Positions 23,797-44,732 of a stretch of 61,390 bases of DNA are shown here, one piece after another. The position numbers and the translations under genes are program-made. Numbering within the stretch: the first letter of the stretch is position 1; each line of letters opens with the position of its first letter. The notes below the pieces were generated by a model that worked only from the letters and a program-made list of their open reading frames with translations, was not told where the DNA came from and made no database searches. Source of the stretch: Candidatus Daviesbacteria bacterium (GTDB lineage: Bacteria > Patescibacteriota > Microgenomatia > Daviesbacterales > UBA10151); contig JACOXI010000005.1 in NCBI GenBank assembly GCA_016176335.1, positions 1-61,390 of the forward strand, written 5' to 3'.

Positions 23797-26579
23797 GGAA
23801 ATATCTCCTTCATAGGTTTCGTCCATGCTTTTTGTAATCTATCAATATCAGCAGAAAACAATTTATCAACAACCAGTTTTTCTTCCTTGATAGTCTTTCC
23901 TAAAATCTTAAACTGTACTCCATTAAATAATTTTTTAGCTATTGTTTCATTTTCTACCTCAACAATAAAACATCCTGCTGTTTCTAACAGTAACTCTTCA
24001 GCATTTGCTTTTATATTGACTCCATTGTTTCCCCCAACACACATATCAAAAATGGCAGTTATTAATCCCCCCTCTGAAACGTCATGAGATGCTAGAACTT
24101 TTCCACTGATAATTGCCTTGTGCATTTTTTCCAAAACCTTAGGTAAAACCTTTAAATAAACTTTTAAATCTTGCTTGCCAACCAAAACAATGGTCGATCC
24201 TACCTTTTTAAAATCAGAAGAAACAGTTTTTTTAACATCTGGAATTTTGCCAAAAACCGAGATACAAACTGTTGGCGGACTATGAATTATGACCCCACTG
24301 GATCCTCTGTATGTAGCGGATAAACTATCTTTTCCTGAAATCACCGGAATCTTTAAAGTCTTCATAAAATCACAAACTGCCGTCACAGATGCATCTAACT
24401 TTCCTAACCATTCCTCAGAAGGATTCGGCCAAATGTAATTGTTAATAAGCGAGGCATTTTTAAAGTCTCCTCCAACTGCAACATAGTTTGAAATGGCTTC
24501 TGTAGCAGACCAGATAGTTCCCCAATAAGGGTCTTCTTTTGTTAATTTAGGGTTCAGGCCATGAGATACGACTAAACCATATGGTTTTTCCAGAATTGGT
24601 TTGATAATTGCTGCATCTTGTGGCCCATCTAAACCAACTCCTGCAAAAGGAGGAAGAACATTTGTTCCCTGTACTGTATGGTCATACATTCTTAAAATGG
24701 GCTCTTTAGAATTGCTGTCACCACCTGATAACGTTTCTTCTAAGAATTTTATCCATTCTTTTTCTGTTGATGGAGTTTTAATTTGTTGGTTTTGTCGTAG
24801 ACCTTGAGCGACCGAAGGGAGTCGAAAGGCCTTCATTACTCTTTGTGGTAATCCACTATGCAAAAATTTCATCTCTAAGTCACCGACTTTCTCTCGACCA
24901 AAGTAAACTTTCAATCTTTTGCTCCCATCATATTCTGCTAATTCTTTAGCCTCTACATTATATTTTTTACAAATTTCTAAAAATTTTCTTAGATTCTTTT
25001 TAGTAAGAATTATTAACATTCTCTCTTGAGATTCAGAAAGGAAAATTTCCCAAGGAGCCAAACCTTGATACTTAAGCGGCGCTTTTTCCAGATGAACTTT
25101 CACCCCAATTTCCGCTCCTGTTTCCCCGATGGCAGAAGAAAACCCTCCGGCTCCTAAATCCTGCACTACCCTTATTAAATCTTTATCTCTGGCCTCAAGT
25201 ATGACATCAAAAATTCTTTTTTCCTCAATGGCATTTCCTATTTGTACAGCTTGAGCGTTTACAGAAATGGTTCTTTCTGTCATTTCACCAGATGAAAAGG
25301 TGGCGCCATGTATCCCATCTCTTCCTGTCCTTCCACCAATCACCAAAGCAACATCTCCTACTCTGGGTTTTCCCTTTTTAGCTTTTGCTTTTGGTAAAAT
25401 TCCATATGCCCCAACTAAAACAATTGGTTTTGCTCTAAAGTCTTCATGAAAATGAAAGGAGCCATTATTTGTGGGGATTCCTACTCTATTGCCATAATCC
25501 CGGACAGCGTAAACTACGCGTTTTAACATATAGTCTGGTGGCAAGGTTCCAGGAGGTAATTTACTTTTATCCATATCAGGTGGGGCAAGACAAAATATAT
25601 CTGTTGATACTAAAGCTTTTGCTCCTTGTCCTGTGGCCACCACATCTCGAAACACTCCACCAGACCCTGTCATGGCTCCTCCGTATGGTTCTATTGCTGA
25701 TGGGGCATTGTGAGTTTCCGCTTTACCGTTTATTGCCCATCCTTCATAAAAATCCATAACTCCGGCATTATCAATAAATGCTGAAACAATATTTTTGTTA
25801 TATTTCAATGCTTCTTTTTTTAATCTTGTAAATAGTGGTTCTTTTTCCTTACCATCTAAAATTATTTTTGCTTTAAAAGTTTTATGGGCACAATGCTCGC
25901 TCCAAGTTTGGGCTAAAGTCTCAAGTTCCAAATCTGTTGGATCTCTTTTAATCTTTTGAAAGTAATTTTGAATAGTTTTCATTTCCTCTAAATTCAGGAA
26001 AAGCTGATCTTGAGAAAGTTCCAAAAGATCGCTATCAGTCATCCGGCGTAGCCGGATCACATTTGTTTTTCCTGGGGTACCTTTTATGAGAAGAGTTTTT
26101 GGTTCTTCTGTTACGAAATGTTCAACCATTTCATTAAGAAGATGAAGTTTCTTGGCAATTTCCTCAATTTCCACCCTGAGCGAACTTGTGGAGAGCGTAG
26201 TCGAACCAGTCGAAGGGCCATAAAAGCCATACTCATGTGATGAATCAGCTGCAATCAGTTTAATTCCTAAATCCTCTGCAGTTTTTAGGATTGAGCCGAC
26301 TTCGGGATTCATGACACCAGGTTTGTAAGCTATCTCAAAAACTAGCTGACTACCCAGAATAGGCGCATTTAAGGTATATTTTTGGTAAATACTTTCACAA
26401 AAAACTTTCTCTGCTAAAACTTTGGCGTCTTTTTCGCTTATCCCCTCAAGTCTATAAACTTTTGCACTTTCAACCTGTGTTACACCTTTTTGCCCAAGAG
26501 TATGATGAATATCATGAAGTATCCCCTCCCCAACTAGATCTCTACCTATAATTGTTTTAACTCTTATTGTATGTATCAT
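23793..26579 (-). CDS. purL: FGAM synthase subunit PurL with a PurS-like N-terminal extension
   Basis: QTWSEHCAHK, ETHNAPSAIEPYGGA, QDLGAGG, SESQERM, SGKDSLS, HDVSEGG. Confidence 0.96.
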   Translation of the reverse strand: MIHTIRVKTIIGRDLVGEGILHDIHHTLGQKGVTQVESAKVYRLEGISEKDAKVLAEKVFCESIYQKYTLNAPILGSQLVFEIAYKPGVMNPEVGSILKTAEDLGIKLIAADSSHEYGFYGPSTGSTTLSTSSLRVEIEEIAKKLHLLNEMVEHFVTEEPKTLLIKGTPGKTNVIRLRRMTDSDLLELSQDQLFLNLEEMKTIQNYFQKIKRDPTDLELETLAQTWSEHCAHKTFKAKIILDGKEKEPLFTRLKKEALKYNKNIVSAFIDNAGVMDFYEGWAINGKAETHNAPSAIEPYGGAMTGSGGVFRDVVATGQGAKALVSTDIFCLAPPDMDKSKLPPGTLPPDYMLKRVVYAVRDYGNRVGIPTNNGSFHFHEDFRAKPIVLVGAYGILPKAKAKKGKPRVGDVALVIGGRTGRDGIHGATFSSGEMTERTISVNAQAVQIGNAIEEKRIFDVILEARDKDLIRVVQDLGAGGFSSAIGETGAEIGVKVHLEKAPLKYQGLAPWEIFLSESQERMLIILTKKNLRKFLEICKKYNVEAKELAEYDGSKRLKVYFGREKVGDLEMKFLHSGLPQRVMKAFRLPSVAQGLRQNQQIKTPSTEKEWIKFLEETLSGGDSNSKEPILRMYDHTVQGTNVLPPFAGVGLDGPQDAAIIKPILEKPYGLVVSHGLNPKLTKEDPYWGTIWSATEAISNYVAVGGDFKNASLINNYIWPNPSEEWLGKLDASVTAVCDFMKTLKIPVISGKDSLSATYRGSSGVIIHSPPTVCISVFGKIPDVKKTVSSDFKKVGSTIVLVGKQDLKVYLKVLPKVLEKMHKAIISGKVLASHDVSEGGLITAIFDMCVGGNNGVNIKANAEELLLETAGCFIVEVENETIAKKLFNGVQFKILGKTIKEEKLVVDKLFSADIDRLQKAWTKPMKEIFP
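24802..24829. repeat. REP-like palindrome in frame in purL
   Basis: CCTTGAGCGACCGAAGGGAGTCGAAAGG, encoding FRLPSVAQG. Confidence 0.8.
26174..26217. repeat. Mosaic REP-like palindrome in frame in purL
   Basis: CCCTGAGC...GAGCGTAGTCGAACC-AGTCGAAGGG, encoding PSTGSTTLSTSSLRV. Confidence 0.8.
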
Positions 26580-41978: not shown

Positions 41979-43421
41979 TCAATATGCTTGACCAAAGAGC
42001 CAACGAAATTTAGCAGGTTTTTTACAATAGATACACTTTCCTTCAGTCTCCATCGATCCTAAAGGTAAACATCTGGTTGTAGCTTTTGTCTCCTGCTTAA
42101 TCTTTGCCTCGCAATCTGGATCCTCACACCAAAATGCCTCAATAAATCCTCTGTCTGTTTCCATAATTTCTTTAAACTGAGGGTAATTATCAGCCTGTCT
42201 GGTATTATCCTTGGTAAATTGTTTTGATTTTTCAAATAAACTTATCTGCATTCCATCAAGAAGTTTTTGGACATTTTCCGCTAAATGTTCCAGCTTTGAA
42301 ACGGTGTAATTCGACTTATTGTTTCTGACACCTATACTAAATTCCTTATTCGTTGCTTCCCAAGACCCAATTTCAATTCTAACGGGAACACCTTCGAGAT
42401 CGTATTGATTCAACTTCCATCCTACGGATTGATCACTGTTATCCAGTTTAACTCTGGTGGAATAACTTGCCAATAATTCATAAGCCTTGTTAGCTAAATC
42501 GTTTATGGTCTTATTATCTGAAGACTTGGTGGTAATTGGGATTATAACAACTTGAGTTGAGGCTAGTCTGGGAGGCAAAACCAACCCGTTATCATCTCCA
42601 TGTACCATAATCATTGCTCCAATTGATCTGGTAGAAAGCCCCCAAGAAGTTTGATAGACATATTGTAATTTCCCCACTTTGTCTTGAAATTGGACTTTAA
42701 AAACTTTGGCAAAATTCTGACCCAAGTTATGGGAGGTGCACCCTTGGACAATTTTCCCGTCCGGCATCAAAATCTCGAAAGTTAAGGTGGCATCTGCACC
42801 AGGGAATTTTTCTGACTCAGACTTTCTGCCTGCATATCCGTAAAGCCCAAGTACTTTCTGATAAAAATCTACATACATTTTTAAAGCTTCATCAACCATT
42901 TTTTGGGCATCCTCATTATTCTCGTGTGCACTATGCCCTTCCTGCCATAAAAATTCGGTTGTTCGTAAAAAATAGTACGGACGTTTTTCCCACCTCACTA
43001 CATTACACCATTGATTGAAGATCAATGGCAGATCTCTAAAAGATTGAATCCATCTTGAGAAAGCATCATACATGATAGTTTCTGAAGTGGGACGAACCAC
43101 CAAGGGCTCTTTTAATTTTTCTCCTCCCCCATGAGTAATAACTGCCAAGTCCGGAGCAAAACCTTTGATATGCTCTTTTTCTTTTGAAAAAAATGAGTAG
43201 GGTATGAATAAGGGGAAGTAAACACTCTGGGCACCCAAATCTTTTATTCTTGTATCCAAAATTTTTTGAACTGTTTCCCACAACACAAAACCTTTCGGCC
43301 GCCAAATCATAGTTCCCTTCACAGGACCATGTTCAGCTAGTTGTGCGCGTTCAATGACGTCATTATACCAAGCTGATATATTTTGACTTTTTTTGGTAAT
43401 ACTTTTTACTTGACCCTTCAT
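41979..43421 (-). CDS. proS: Proline-tRNA ligase (eukaryote/archaea-like type)
   Basis: VRPTSET, FLRTTEFLWQEGH, TSHNLGQNF, QTSWGLSTR, C-terminal Cys motifs. Confidence 0.97.
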   Translation of the reverse strand: MKGQVKSITKKSQNISAWYNDVIERAQLAEHGPVKGTMIWRPKGFVLWETVQKILDTRIKDLGAQSVYFPLFIPYSFFSKEKEHIKGFAPDLAVITHGGGEKLKEPLVVRPTSETIMYDAFSRWIQSFRDLPLIFNQWCNVVRWEKRPYYFLRTTEFLWQEGHSAHENNEDAQKMVDEALKMYVDFYQKVLGLYGYAGRKSESEKFPGADATLTFEILMPDGKIVQGCTSHNLGQNFAKVFKVQFQDKVGKLQYVYQTSWGLSTRSIGAMIMVHGDDNGLVLPPRLASTQVVIIPITTKSSDNKTINDLANKAYELLASYSTRVKLDNSDQSVGWKLNQYDLEGVPVRIEIGSWEATNKEFSIGVRNNKSNYTVSKLEHLAENVQKLLDGMQISLFEKSKQFTKDNTRQADNYPQFKEIMETDRGFIEAFWCEDPDCEAKIKQETKATTRCLPLGSMETEGKCIYCKKPAKFRWLFGQAY

Positions 43422-43427
43422 ACTTAC

Positions 43428-43760
43428 TTAATATAATTTTGCTCCTAATGGTGCATCTTTATCTGGCACAACCAGTATGCACCTATGCTCCTCATCTGGC
43501 ACACCTATGGTAAGGACCTCTGATACAAAAGGACCGATTTGTCTGGGTTCCAGATTAACAACCCCCAATACTAGTTTACCTTCTAGGTCTTCCTTTGTAT
43601 ATAGATCCACTAGTTGTGCTGAAGATCTCTTTGTTCCTATTTCCAAACCAAAATCTATAGTCAGCTTATATGATGGTTTTCTGGCTTCTGGGAAATCTTC
43701 AACTTTGATAATTTTTCCAACTCTGATATCTAGTTTTAGGAAATCATCAATATTTGCCAT
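43428..43760 (-). CDS. tRNA-binding OB-fold protein (CsaA/Trbp111 family)
   Basis: DFLKLDIRVGKI, KLTIDFG, VVNLEPRQIG. Confidence 0.92.
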   Translation of the reverse strand: MANIDDFLKLDIRVGKIIKVEDFPEARKPSYKLTIDFGLEIGTKRSSAQLVDLYTKEDLEGKLVLGVVNLEPRQIGPFVSEVLTIGVPDEEHRCILVVPDKDAPLGAKLY

Positions 43761-43968
43761 TAAAAAAACACCTCCCCTCTTTTAAGGACGAAGGTGTAAA
43801 CTCCGTGGTACCACCTTAATTGTTTCTTATTCAGGTTATCACGTTACTAACGGGAATACTTCCTCCTTCGCCATACTTCGGCTGACAGGCTTCATACCCA
43901 GCTTGGGGCCTTCGGCCCTGAGGGGCTCAGGCCCTCGAAGGGGCGGGAAACCCCTTCATTGCTTTTCT
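43761..43968 (-). promoter_or_regulatory. T-box riboswitch (antiterminator and terminator clear, stem I atypical)
   Basis: AAGGTGGTACCACGG at 43817-43803; CCCGTTA at 43854-43848; hairpin ACACCTTC..GGAGGTGT followed by a U-tract. Confidence 0.75.
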
Positions 43969-44732
43969 TTTCTAATTTTATCAGGATGTTCTTTTGGTGT
44001 CAAATTTGAATCTTCTTTTCTTGTTTCTTGCCTGTTGTCCTGTTTTTGTGACCGTTGTCTTTCTTCCTCCAGTTTTTTCTTGATTTCCTCAAGCCTTTTT
44101 CTGGCTTCTTCTATTTCCTTTCGTCTTTGCTTTTCCTTTTCTTCTTCCTGCCTATTTGGCCTTGGTGTAGGTTCAACAGTAGGAAGCGGGGTTGAAGTAG
44201 GTTGAACAGTTGGGAGTGGCGTTGGGCGGACAGTTGCAACAGGAGTGGCTTTAGGAGTAGGGGAAGGTATTGTTTCAGCAGATGGAGTTGGAGATGGTGT
44301 AATCGCAGGTTGGAGAACAGCTGGTGGAATGCTTGGCTTCGCAGTCAATTGTTGTAATCCTTGATCGTATTTTTCAATAGATTGAGAAAGTTGGTTGATC
44401 AGTTGTTCTTTTTGTTTTTGGTCTGTTATTTGATTAATTTGACCGGCTGCTATATCTGTTTGTACCACCAACTCGTTTAAAGTCTCTTTTGCTTGTTTTC
44501 CCTCTGTTATCAAAACAGTGACTTCCTGAAATCTCCTGTCAGATCTGGCAGCAGCAAACCAAGCCTTGGAAGTTGGAGTCAAAGATGCCACAGCATAGAT
44601 CACATCTTCTAATCCCCGCTTAATCGGGTATGTGGCATCACCAGGTGCCGCATTATTGGAAATAACAGCCAAGGCAGCCGGAGGGAAAAGTACAATTGTT
44701 AAAATTAAACTGATGATACCGAGCAGTTTCAC
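43956..44732 (-). CDS. Secreted helical protein with a P/T-rich linker (DUF5667-like, tentative)
   Basis: Signal peptide, APGDATYPIKRGLE motif, PT repeats, charged tail. Confidence 0.7.
   Translation of the reverse strand: MKLLGIISLILTIVLFPPAALAVISNNAAPGDATYPIKRGLEDVIYAVASLTPTSKAWFAAARSDRRFQEVTVLITEGKQAKETLNELVVQTDIAAGQINQITDQKQKEQLINQLSQSIEKYDQGLQQLTAKPSIPPAVLQPAITPSPTPSAETIPSPTPKATPVATVRPTPLPTVQPTSTPLPTVEPTPRPNRQEEEKEKQRRKEIEEARKRLEEIKKKLEEERQRSQKQDNRQETRKEDSNLTPKEHPDKIRKEKQ
43975..44003 (-). promoter_or_regulatory. Near-consensus promoter for the T-box leader
   Basis: TTGACA-17-TAAAAT with TG extension, inside the 3' end of the upstream ORF. Confidence 0.8.

What the first reader, a model, noticed from the sequence alone, without database searches (positions are those of the whole stretch)
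43761..44003. T-box riboswitch with a repeat-invaded stem I and an SD inside the terminator
Seen: a strong promoter, a CCCGTTA box, the T-box sequence AAGGTGGTACCACGG, and a terminator whose 3' arm contains GGAGGTG 8 nt before the csaA ATG; proS follows. The stem I region lacks the usual AGTA and distal motifs and holds two REP-like palindromes. A candidate Pro specifier GAAG-CCT (43889-43887) overlaps one of them, so it is uncertain. Established: T-boxes control synthetase genes mainly in Firmicutes and Actinobacteria. Inference: a CPR T-box with combined transcriptional and translational control, or a decaying one.
Basis: partly seen in the sequence, partly recalled or inferred. Interest (0 to 1): 0.7.

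Follow-up and report, generated by a model that had tools for sequence, protein, structure and literature searches.

The report
Minimal proline T-box with repeat insertions
The leader of the csaA-proS operon in this ultrasmall groundwater bacterium is a real tRNA-sensing T-box switch of an unusually small type that standard annotation misses, and this copy has recently gained two small palindromic repeat insertions that a sister strain lacks.

Summary
On the minus strand, 44003-43761 carries a near-consensus promoter, a T-box sequence (AAGGUGGUACCACGG), an antiterminator and a competing terminator. GGAGG in the terminator's 3' arm is the csaA ribosome-binding site. Rfam's T-box model gives the only hit in the window, at 36 bits against a threshold of 93.

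Six related Microgenomates leaders (Daviesbacteria-like) explain the odd Stem I. The whole clade has an ultrashort Stem I: a K-turn, a 4-5 bp stem and an invariant 7-nt loop, UUUCCCG. The loop displays the proline codon CCC (43947-43945). In a hand-trimmed alignment, 10 of 18 helix pairs show compensatory changes.

It lies in a ~29-nt insert in the Stem II loop. A second insert of ~35 nt, GC-rich, follows the specifier hairpin and belongs to a dispersed palindrome family (7 copies against 0.02 expected). A strain about 92% identical has neither insert.

Most likely this is a working proline T-box that controls termination and also hides the ribosome-binding site. An ultrashort Stem I joined to a terminator is not in the literature I could search, where that stem is described for translational actinobacterial switches. 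Earlier notes of this scan report similar leaders in other CPR (candidate phyla radiation) genomes.

The parts
43975..44003 (-). Sigma-70-type promoter, TTGACA (44003..43998), 17-nt spacer, TAAAAT (43980..43975). It lies inside the K/E-rich 3' end of the upstream ORF. The transcript probably starts near 43968.
   Evidence: 11 of 12 matches, TG before the -10. Comparable promoters stand 10-25 nt before AAAGC in L161, L163, L165, L166, L177 and L178.
43955..43962 (-). Stem I base: the 5' strand of closing helix P1 (GC) and the bulged strand of the K-turn (AAUGAA). The stop codon UGA of the upstream ORF (43958..43956) lies inside it.
   Evidence: cmscan aligns it to the GA-motif positions of RF00230. 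Relatives have GAUGAA, UAUGAA and UGUGAA. In the window, GAA is predicted to pair with UUC of the insert.
43940..43954 (-). Specifier hairpin GGGG-UUUCCCG-CCCC. The loop is 43950..43944, the proline specifier CCC is 43947..43945, and the purine G that follows is 43944.
   Evidence: The loop is invariant in 7 leaders. The stem covaries: GGGG/CCCC, AGAG/CUCU, GGAG/CUCC, UUUGG/CCAAA. The probability that CCC is unpaired is about 1.0. Downstream genes are proS, and proB-like genes in relatives.
43905..43939 (-). GC-rich palindromic insert of about 35 nt in Stem I (UUCGAGGGCCUGAGCCCCUCAGGGCCGAAGGCCCC), between the specifier hairpin and the 3' strand of the K-turn. It folds as a hairpin of its own.
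   Evidence: Absent from L178, L161 and L177 and from a strain about 92% identical in run X9. It matches the dispersed pattern CCTGAG-N-TCGAAGG, 7 copies against 0.02 expected. It is about 80% identical to an intergenic element in L171. Alone it folds at -19.6 kcal/mol.
43901..43904 (-). 3' strand of the K-turn and of P1 (AAGC). Relatives have GGAGC or AGAGC, so the G at K-turn position 2n is an A here.
43853..43899 (-). Stem II: GGGUAU (43899..43894) pairs with GUAUUCC (43859..43853). The loop holds an insert of about 29 nt (roughly 43890..43862) where relatives have a pentaloop (GAAAA, GACGA or GAUGA).
   Evidence: The insert has no other copy and only loosely resembles the palindrome family.
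43819..43852 (-). Stem IIA-like hairpin CGUUAGUAACG (43852..43842) and an A-rich linker. There is no Stem III.
   Evidence: cmscan alignment. CGUU/AACG is invariant in the 4 closest leaders, so it is untested by covariation. A IIA/B pseudoknot is supported only in the other subgroup (L163, L165, L168, L177).
43783..43818 (-). T-box sequence and antiterminator: helix A1 UAAGG/CCUUA, bulge UGGUACC (43813..43807, with UGGU to pair with the tRNA 3' end ACCA), helix A2 ACGGAG/CUUCGU.
   Evidence: compensatory changes in A1 and A2; -8.2 kcal/mol.
43762..43797 (-). Intrinsic terminator, which also acts as a sequestrator: ACACCUUC-GU-CCUU / AAAA / GAGG-GGAGGUGU, then U7 (43768..43762). The Shine-Dalgarno GGAGG is at 43775..43771. 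The 5' arm overlaps the 3' strands of the antiterminator.
   Evidence: -13.1 kcal/mol. The same layout occurs in all 7 leaders. The simple terminator scan did not list it, because the stem has a 2-nt bulge.
43428..43760 (-). csaA, a CsaA/Trbp111-type tRNA-binding protein and the first regulated gene.
   Evidence: NF007495 and TIGR02222, above their cut-offs.
41979..43421 (-). proS, an archaeal/eukaryote-like (family I) prolyl-tRNA synthetase and the second regulated gene.
   Evidence: TIGR00408, 559 bits.

Best explanation
This is a functional proline-specific T-box riboswitch of a minimal architecture.

How it is built (shown from sequence and comparison):
- Transcription starts at the promoter inside the upstream gene's 3' end.
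- Stem I is ultrashort: a short closing helix (P1), a K-turn, then a 4-bp stem whose 7-nt loop UUUCCCG displays CCC.
- A short Stem II and a small IIA-like hairpin follow. There is no Stem III.
- The T-box bulge UGGU fits the 3' end ACCA of a tRNA with discriminator A73.

How it should work (inferred from the established T-box mechanism):
- Uncharged tRNA-Pro stabilises the antiterminator. RNA polymerase then reads into csaA-proS and the Shine-Dalgarno sequence is free.
- Charged tRNA cannot stabilise it. The stronger terminator forms (-13 against -8 kcal/mol), stops transcription at U7 and hides GGAGG in any transcript that escapes.

What is special to this copy: it recently gained a ~35-nt palindromic repeat element in Stem I and a ~29-nt insert in the Stem II loop. 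Both lie at positions that tolerate extra hairpins, so the switch probably still works.
For: T-box identity:
- RF00230 gives the only hit in the window, spanning the full model with 76-78 Stem I positions replaced by a short stretch.
- Six relatives score 28-59 bits with the same layout.

Specifier:
- The loop UUUCCCG is invariant on covarying stems.
- In the hand-trimmed alignment, all 126 cells of 18 pairs form standard pairs, and 10 pairs carry double changes. 0 of 500 shuffles reach the pairing or covariation scores, and 2 of 500 reach the count of pairs with double changes.
- The regulated genes are proS and, in L165 and L166, a proB-like glutamate 5-kinase.

Expression platform:
- The helices are mutually exclusive, and the terminator is the more stable.
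- The Shine-Dalgarno sequence in the 3' arm, followed by U6-7, is conserved in all 7 leaders.

Inserts:
- They are absent from L178 and L161.
- They are absent from a strain in run X9 that shows 12 differences in 160 nt. Its contig reads GGGGUUUCCCGCCC|UGGAGUUGGAUGCGAUGAGCAUUUCCGUUG.
- The Stem I insert belongs to a repeat family.

Continued function:
- CCC stays unpaired in the fold.
- Stem II kept its pairing through a G-C to A-U double change relative to the X9 allele.
- L166 has a different hairpin at the same Stem I site.
- proS lies behind the terminator with no room for another promoter.
Against: - There is no experimental or transcript evidence. Only DNA runs hold this sequence.
- The score is far below Rfam's gathering threshold.
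- In this copy the K-turn consensus is weakened (GGAGC has become AAGC), and its GAA is predicted to pair with the insert. K-turns matter in the T-boxes studied so far (PMC10651847).
- Stem II has no recognisable S-turn, and the IIA/B pseudoknot is not supported for this subgroup. Both are essential in actinobacterial ileS T-boxes (PMC10651847).
- The review PMC7583486 states that transcriptional T-boxes generally need the long Stem I platform.
- Close relatives such as L169 and L167 lack the leader, so it is dispensable in the lineage.
- The covariation alignment was hand-trimmed and fitted to the structure.
Confidence: 0.7

Rival explanations
1. A crippled or decaying T-box. The two inserts, together with loss of the K-turn consensus, have abolished productive tRNA binding. 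csaA-proS would then be expressed only through leaky termination or read-through from the upstream gene.
For: - The K-turn 3' strand is AAGC instead of GGAGC, and GAA is predicted to pair with the insert.
- The Stem II pentaloop is interrupted.
- L168 shows a leader whose Stem I looks partly deleted.
- Several relatives have lost the leader altogether.
- The inserts are recent, so selection may not yet have acted.
Against: - The specifier loop, T-box bulge, antiterminator, terminator and promoter are all intact.
- A 12-bp terminator with U7 directly in front of proS would be costly if it were constitutive.
- Stem II shows a compensatory double change relative to the insert-free allele.
- Another hairpin sits at the same Stem I site in L166, and inserts occur in loops of L178 and L168. 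These sites therefore appear permissive.
Confidence: 0.17
2. A purely translational T-box, as in Actinobacteria. On this reading the 3' helix only sequesters the Shine-Dalgarno sequence, and the U run is just an AU-rich spacer rather than a working terminator.
For: - An ultrashort Stem I has so far been described for translational T-boxes (PMC7583486).
- GGAGG lies in the 3' arm in all 7 leaders.
- The consensus terminator scan did not list the site.
Against: - Every one of the 7 leaders has U6-7 immediately after a GC-containing helix of 10-19 bp. That is the signature of an intrinsic terminator.
- Actinobacterial sequestrators lack such a run (my own knowledge of Sherwood et al. 2015; the paper could not be opened).
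Confidence: 0.12
3. A chance resemblance: an ordinary 5' UTR with GC-rich repeats and a terminator-like hairpin, not a tRNA-sensing RNA.
For: The Rfam score is below the gathering threshold.
Against: - The full-length model match has E 1.9e-4 for the whole window.
- Six orthologous leaders carry the same elements and covarying helices.
- The codon matches the regulated genes.
Confidence: 0.01

Closest known systems
Ultrashort-Stem-I ileS T-box riboswitches of Actinobacteria (Mycobacterium, Nocardia; Sherwood et al. 2015; reviewed in PMC7583486; dynamics in PMC10651847)
   Same: - Stem I is reduced to a K-turn and a short hairpin that shows the specifier in its apical loop.
- There is no tRNA-elbow platform.
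- The Shine-Dalgarno sequence lies in the 3' arm of the helix that competes with the T-box helix.
   Different: - This one is in Patescibacteria (CPR), not Actinobacteria.
- It is specific for proline and controls csaA-proS, not ileS.
- The competing helix is followed by U7, like an intrinsic terminator.
- Stem II is a 5-6 bp hairpin with a pentaloop and no evident S-turn.
- This subgroup has no Stem III.
Canonical transcriptional T-box leaders (Rfam RF00230), including the proline T-boxes before family-I proS in Firmicutes seen here in L005, L012, L020 and L021
   Same: - The T-box sequence with a UGGN bulge.
- An antiterminator and terminator that exclude each other.
- A GA motif at the base of Stem I.
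- A specifier that matches the regulated synthetase.
- The same type of ProRS downstream.
   Different: - The Firmicute leaders score 96-131 bits and have a full Stem I. This one scores 36 bits, with 76-78 Stem I positions missing.
- The specifier sits in a terminal loop rather than an internal loop.
- The specifier is CCC, whereas TBDB reports a preference for U-ending proline specifiers (PMC7778990).
- The Shine-Dalgarno sequence is inside the terminator.
REP-like or RPE-like small palindromic repeats (REP elements, Rickettsia palindromic elements)
   Same: - Short GC-rich palindromes dispersed through a low-GC genome.
- Found between genes and inside structured or coding regions.
- Present or absent between close strains.
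   Different: - The family here has the termini CCTGAG...TCGAAGG and occurs in Microgenomates.
- No transposase or target duplication was identified.
- Here the copies sit inside a riboswitch's helices.
Lineage-specific insertions in T-box leaders (for example stem Sa of staphylococcal glyS T-boxes, PMC9177973)
   Same: Extra hairpins are tolerated at particular loops of a T-box.
   Different: Stem Sa is conserved across a genus. The inserts here differ between strains about 92% identical, and one derives from a dispersed repeat.

Membership tests
T-box riboswitch (RF00230) | Conserved T-box sequence with a 7-nt bulge UGGNACC inside an antiterminator helix | tested here: met
   AAGGUGGUACCACGG at 43817..43803. 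Helices A1 and A2 pair and covary across 7 leaders.
T-box riboswitch (RF00230) | A competing terminator or sequestrator that shares a strand with the antiterminator | tested here: met
   The terminator 43797..43768 overlaps the 3' strands of A2 and A1. Energies are -13.1 against -8.2 kcal/mol.
T-box riboswitch (RF00230) | A specifier codon in Stem I that matches the amino acid of the regulated genes, followed by a purine | tested here: met
   CCC followed by G in the invariant loop UUUCCCG. The regulated genes are proS and proB-like genes.
T-box riboswitch (RF00230) | GA motif (K-turn) at the base of Stem I | tested here: inconclusive
   Relatives have xAUGAA...GGAGC. The window has AAUGAA...AAGC (position 2n is A), and GAA is predicted to pair with the insert.
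T-box riboswitch (RF00230) | Long Stem I with an S-turn specifier loop, an AG bulge and a distal loop (the tRNA-elbow platform) | tested here: not met
   cmscan replaces 76-78 model positions by 7 nt in relatives and by 43 nt (loop plus insert) in the window.
T-box riboswitch (RF00230) | Score at or above Rfam's gathering threshold (93 bits) | tested here: not met
   The window scores 36.3 bits and relatives 27.6-58.7 bits.
T-box riboswitch (RF00230) | Read-through that depends on uncharged tRNA | not testable with these tools
   Needs in vitro transcription or a reporter. Only DNA runs hold the sequence.
Actinobacterial ultrashort-Stem-I (translational) T-box class | Specifier in the apical loop of a short Stem I that lacks the elbow platform | tested here: met
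Actinobacterial ultrashort-Stem-I (translational) T-box class | Stem II with an S-turn, and a IIA/B pseudoknot that docks Stem I | tested here: inconclusive
   Stem II is a 5-6 bp hairpin with a purine-rich pentaloop and no S-turn pattern. The pseudoknot covaries in L163, L165, L168 and L177 (GGAU:AUCC against CCA:UGG) but is not evident in the window's subgroup.
Actinobacterial ultrashort-Stem-I (translational) T-box class | Regulation by Shine-Dalgarno sequestration without an intrinsic terminator | tested here: not met
   The Shine-Dalgarno sequence is sequestered, but the helix is followed by U6-7 in all 7 leaders.
Dispersed palindromic repeat family CCTGAG..TCGAAGG (REP-like) | Shared termini and many dispersed copies | tested here: met
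   7 matches in the window against 0.02 expected, one of them at 43917-43941. Copies also occur in L161, L168 and L171. The Stem I insert is about 80% identical to an L171 element. For the Stem II insert the resemblance is only loose.
Dispersed palindromic repeat family CCTGAG..TCGAAGG (REP-like) | Presence or absence at an orthologous site in close relatives | tested here: met
   The insert-free allele is seen in a contig of run X9 and in L178, L161 and L177.
Dispersed palindromic repeat family CCTGAG..TCGAAGG (REP-like) | An associated transposase (RAYT-type) or a target-site duplication | not tested

The most novel reading that the evidence does not exclude
These leaders may represent an undescribed architectural class of T-box in Patescibacteria. 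In it, a decoding module without the tRNA-elbow platform, without an S-turn and (in this subgroup) without Stem III drives an intrinsic terminator co-transcriptionally, and the same helix hides the ribosome-binding site.

The module would also be robust enough to accept whole extra hairpins, here a mobile palindrome, at the K-turn junction and in the Stem II loop.

A bolder and less likely extension concerns CsaA, the tRNA-binding protein encoded as the first regulated gene. It might supply the missing tRNA-elbow contact in trans.
Probability: 0.45. Interest if true: 0.7.

Novelty: new variant of a known kind. Interest (0 to 1): 0.55.

Why it matters
- **Mechanism.** The field holds that terminator-type T-boxes need the long Stem I platform to capture tRNA quickly, and that ultrashort Stem I belongs to slower, translational switches of Actinobacteria (PMC7583486). 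A conserved clade that joins an ultrashort Stem I to a terminator challenges that rule, and these leaders are small enough (about 140 nt without inserts) to study directly.
- **Distribution.** It extends T-box regulation to CPR bacteria, where Rfam-based annotation misses these leaders because they score below threshold.
- **A natural experiment.** The paired alleles, with and without two inserts in strains about 92% identical, show which positions of a T-box tolerate extra helices.
- **Repeat biology.** It shows that small palindromic repeats colonise riboswitches as well as genes.

Tried and rejected
Rejected. It lies in the Stem II loop insert, which is absent from L178, L161 and the X9 allele.
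- **GAA...AGUA near 43893/43860 as a Stem II S-turn.** I considered this early and dropped it, because relatives have only a pentaloop there.
- **ProRS relatives in genome contigs and metagenome contigs.** None had a T-box before proS among the CPR hits. Close relatives came only through the search for homologous proteins followed by the look-up of encoding contigs.
- **Automatic alignment.** MAFFT on full leaders misaligned L163 and L165 because of their long inserts. I used a hand-trimmed alignment instead.
- **Stem II insert as a repeat.** BLAST of the insert found no other copy.
- **tRNA-Pro.** No tRNA-Pro gene lies in the window or in 20 loci.
- Sherwood 2015 (PMC4313828) is not held.
- **k-junction idea.** Not adopted. 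In k-junctions the third helix lies opposite the bulge (PMC10573300), whereas here the extra hairpin lies beyond the G.A pairs.
- **Literature.** Searches for T-box together with Patescibacteria, CPR or Microgenomates found nothing.
Full report
**What is in the sequence**

The element lies on the minus strand. Reading the RNA 5' to 3':

- A near-consensus promoter, TTGACA-17-TAAAAT, at 44003..43975. It sits inside the K/E-rich tail of the upstream ORF, whose stop codon UGA is at 43958..43956.
- GC-AAUGAA at 43962..43955.
- A hairpin GGGG-UUUCCCG-CCCC at 43954..43940.
- A GC-rich palindromic stretch at 43939..43905.
- AAGC at 43904..43901.
- A helix GGGUAU/GUAUUCC (43899..43894 with 43859..43853) enclosing 34 nt.
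- CGUUAGUAACG at 43852..43842, then an A-rich linker.
- UAAGG-UGGUACC-ACGGAG-UUUACAC-CUUCGU-CCUUA at 43818..43783.
- A hairpin ACACCUUC-GU-CCUU/AAAA/GAGG-GGAGGUGU followed by U7, AA and the AUG of csaA at 43760.

csaA encodes a CsaA/Trbp111-type tRNA-binding protein. It is followed 7 nt later by proS, a family-I prolyl-tRNA synthetase.

**Is it a T-box?**

- At Rfam's gathering thresholds the window has no hit.
- At E-value thresholds the T-box model RF00230 is the only family that matches anywhere in the 61 kb. It matches at 43968..43781 with 36.3 bits and E 1.9e-4, spanning model positions 1-219.
- The alignment keeps the GA motif, a Stem II, a IIA-like hairpin and the T-box/antiterminator. 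It replaces 78 Stem I positions by 43 nt.
- GGTGGTACCRCG occurs once in the window, against 0.07 expected.
- The terminator (-13.1 kcal/mol) and the antiterminator (-8.2 kcal/mol) share a strand, as the T-box mechanism requires.

**Relatives**

The scans of genome and metagenome contigs with ProRS returned only distant hits of 56% identity or less. The CPR hits among them had no T-box before proS. Firmicute family-I proS genes do have canonical T-boxes, at 96-131 bits.

Protein searches showed many close relatives named Daviesbacteria, Curtissbacteria, Levybacteria and Microgenomates. I fetched their contigs. The gene order rseP-x-csaA-proS-tig is conserved.

Six distinct relatives carry a homologous leader:

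- L161/162, before csaA-proS.
- L178/179, before csaA-proS.
- L166, before a proB-like kinase and proS.
- L165, before a proB-like kinase, csaA and proS.
- L163/164 and L177, before an amino-acid N-acetyltransferase-like gene and proS.
- L168 has a rearranged copy.

L167, L169, L170-176 and the contig of P0174 have no such leader, so its distribution is patchy. All these leaders hit RF00230 at 27.6-58.7 bits, below the gathering score, so Rfam-based annotation would not report them.

**Architecture of the clade**

Every leader has GC, a K-turn strand (xAUGAA, or GUUUGAG/GUUUAAG in L165 and L163), a 4-5 bp stem, the invariant loop UUUCCCG, the return strand, GGA/AGA/CAA and GC.

The stem covaries: GGGG/CCCC, GGGG/CCCU, AGAG/CUCU, GGAG/CUCC and UUUGG/CCAAA.

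cmscan aligns this as Stem I with 76 model positions replaced by 7 nt. Stem I is therefore ultrashort, and the codon is shown in the apical loop. CCC followed by the purine G fits the T-box rule. It also fits the regulated genes, proS and a proB-like glutamate 5-kinase. CCG, one position later, would also be proline.

The T-box bulge reads UGGU in all seven leaders. That fits a tRNA ending ACCA with discriminator A73; that bacterial tRNA-Pro has A73 is my own knowledge.

Stem II is a 5-6 bp hairpin with a purine-rich pentaloop (GAAAA, GACGA, GAUGA, GUUGA or GGUGA). I see no S-turn.

One subgroup (L163, L165, L168, L177) has a IIA/B pseudoknot with covariation (GGAU:AUCC against CCA:UGG) and a Stem III-like hairpin. 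The window's subgroup (window, L178, L161, L166) has only CGUU-NNU-AACG and no Stem III.

I made a hand-trimmed alignment of the four core helices, with the variable loops cut out. The counts are:

- All 126 cells of 18 pairs form standard pairs.
- 10 pairs carry changes on both sides.
- 0 of 500 shuffles reach the pairing or covariation scores, and 2 of 500 reach the count of pairs with double changes.
- Sliding the 3' partners drops pairing to 38-49%.

The alignment was fitted to the structure and holds only seven sequences, so this is good support, not proof.

**Expression platform**

In all seven leaders the 3' arm of the terminator contains the Shine-Dalgarno sequence (GGAGG, AGAGGUGA or GGGGGAGG). 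The U6-7 run that follows the helix is also the spacer to the start codon.

I infer that termination is the primary control and that occlusion of the Shine-Dalgarno sequence silences transcripts that escape. A purely translational reading is a rival.

**The inserts**

L178 is identical to the window through GAAAAGCAAUGAAGGGGUUUCCCGCCC and then continues UGGAGC-UGAAUGC-GAAAA-GCAUCUC-CGUUGAUAACG.

The window instead has about 35 nt (UUCGAGGGCCUGAGCCCCUCAGGGCCGAAGGCCCC) between CCCC and AAGC, and about 29 nt inside the Stem II pentaloop (GAA[GCCUGUCAGCCGAAGUAUGGCGAAGGAGG]AA).

Public groundwater runs hold the window sequence itself and relatives of it. In run X9 a contig matches the upstream gene with 12 differences in 160 nt. 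After GGGGUUUCCCGCCC it runs on as UGGAGUUGGAUGCGAUGAGCAUUUCCGUUG, which is the compact form with neither insert. Both inserts are therefore recent.

The Stem I insert matches the pattern CCTGAG-N(1-30)-TCGAAGG on the plus strand. That pattern occurs 7 times in the window against 0.02 expected. It also occurs in L161, L168 and L171-174. In L168 a copy sits in the Stem II loop of that T-box. The insert is about 80% identical over 41 positions to an intergenic composite element in the Curtissbacteria locus L171. It is thus a member of a dispersed palindromic repeat family.

The Stem II insert has no second copy. It only loosely resembles the family, as CCUG(UC)AGC...GCGAAGG, so its origin is uncertain.

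**Does the switch still work?**

Folding of the 5' domain gives the following picture:

- The specifier hairpin is kept, with CCC unpaired at probability about 1.0.
- The insert folds as a separate hairpin (-19.6 kcal/mol alone).
- A three-way junction is closed by AGC/GCU.
- GAA of the K-turn is predicted to pair with UUC of the insert, and the 3' K-turn strand is AAGC rather than GGAGC. The K-turn may therefore be lost.

Evidence for continued function:

- The promoter, specifier, T-box bulge, antiterminator and terminator are all intact.
- Stem II differs from the X9 allele at four positions and still pairs, including a G-C to A-U double change.
- L166 carries an unrelated 31-nt hairpin at the very same Stem I site, and L178 carries an insert in the antiterminator loop. 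These loops and junctions therefore tolerate additions.
- proS lies directly behind a strong terminator with no room for another promoter.

I put about 70% on a working proline T-box, about 17% on a crippled one and about 12% on a purely translational one.

**Comparison with what is known**

The review PMC7583486 states that transcriptional T-boxes generally require a long Stem I with the elbow-binding platform. It states that ultrashort Stem I is typical of translational T-boxes, mostly in Actinobacteria.

PMC10651847 shows that the K-turn, the Stem II S-turn and the IIA/B pseudoknot are important in those T-boxes.

TBDB searched its class II model only in Actinobacteria and in truncated class I hits (PMC7778990).

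Full-text searches for T-box together with Patescibacteria, CPR or Microgenomates found nothing.

Earlier notes of this scan (AI notes, not independent evidence) report similar short-stem T-boxes in other CPR genomes for Thr, Asp, Ile, Tyr, Arg and Pro. One is an Arg leader in this same genome with a palindrome in a loop. My independent analysis of this locus agrees with them.

I therefore file this as a T-box by mechanism and core features. It is not a canonical RF00230 member, since the platform and the gathering score were tested and not met. It is not a member of the actinobacterial translational class either, because a terminator is present and no S-turn is seen. It is a new variant of a known kind.

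**Limits**

I could not list the genome's tRNA-Pro genes, other T-boxes, a second proS or the full repeat family.
- No RNA data exist for this organism.

Noticed in passing
L166:2069-2099: A 31-nt hairpin (UUUUAUCCCACGAAACUUUAGUGAAGUGGGA), unrelated in sequence to the window's insert, sits at exactly the same Stem I site, between the specifier hairpin and GGAGC. This junction seems to accept extra helices repeatedly.
   Followed up: partly
L178:2088-2112: A GC-rich insert of about 23 nt (UUCGGCAGGCUCACCGCAAGCUAGC) lies in the loop of the antiterminator A2 helix of an otherwise compact proline T-box.
   Followed up: no
L168:1987-2369: This is a rearranged proline T-box. The 5' half of the specifier hairpin looks deleted (GCGUUUG|CCCGCC), there are long extra segments, and a family palindrome GTCCTTCGACAAGCTCAGGAC sits in the Stem II loop. 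The antiterminator and terminator are intact and are followed by a 65-aa ORF with its own Shine-Dalgarno sequence before csaA.
   Followed up: partly
L163:2420-2445, L165:1775-1800, L168:2255-2285: Leaders of the second subgroup contain an internal GC-rich hairpin followed by U7 (for example ACACACCAUAGGGUGUGUUUUUUU) between Stem IIA/B and the T-box sequence. This is a second terminator-like site inside the leader.
   Followed up: no
L082:4461-4706: Another CPR-like contig has a weak T-box hit (33 bits) with its own promoter and a short Stem I (GC-GUUGA-CCGG-AUUCGCAC-CCCG-AGAGC). It stands before a 354-aa protein with no NCBIfam match. The specifier is ambiguous (CGC or GCA).
   Followed up: partly
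L171:2040-4172 (also L172-L176): These Curtissbacteria loci have no T-box. What looks like a remnant of a proB-like kinase lies upstream of csaA. csaA is followed by a bacterial-type (family II, 413-aa, no editing domain) ProRS, so the csaA-proS pairing persists across two different ProRS types.
   Followed up: partly
window 43956-44003: The upstream 258-aa ORF (no NCBIfam hit) ends with its UGA inside the K-turn AUGA of the leader, and the T-box promoter lies in its coding tail. Read-through transcripts and terminating ribosomes could therefore interfere with Stem I folding.
   Followed up: no
window 5838, 6530, 22894, 26175, 50506, 60350: Other copies of the CCTGAG..TCGAAGG palindrome family occur in the window. 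The copy at 26175 has a longer, apparently nested interior.
   Followed up: partly
window 43803-43829 and 43935-43958 (runs X2, X6): An abundant different organism in the same groundwater samples (word depth about 200 in X2) has a contig matching only the T-box sequence and the specifier hairpin, with 78 nt between them instead of 105. Several populations in these samples therefore carry proline T-boxes of this type.
   Followed up: no
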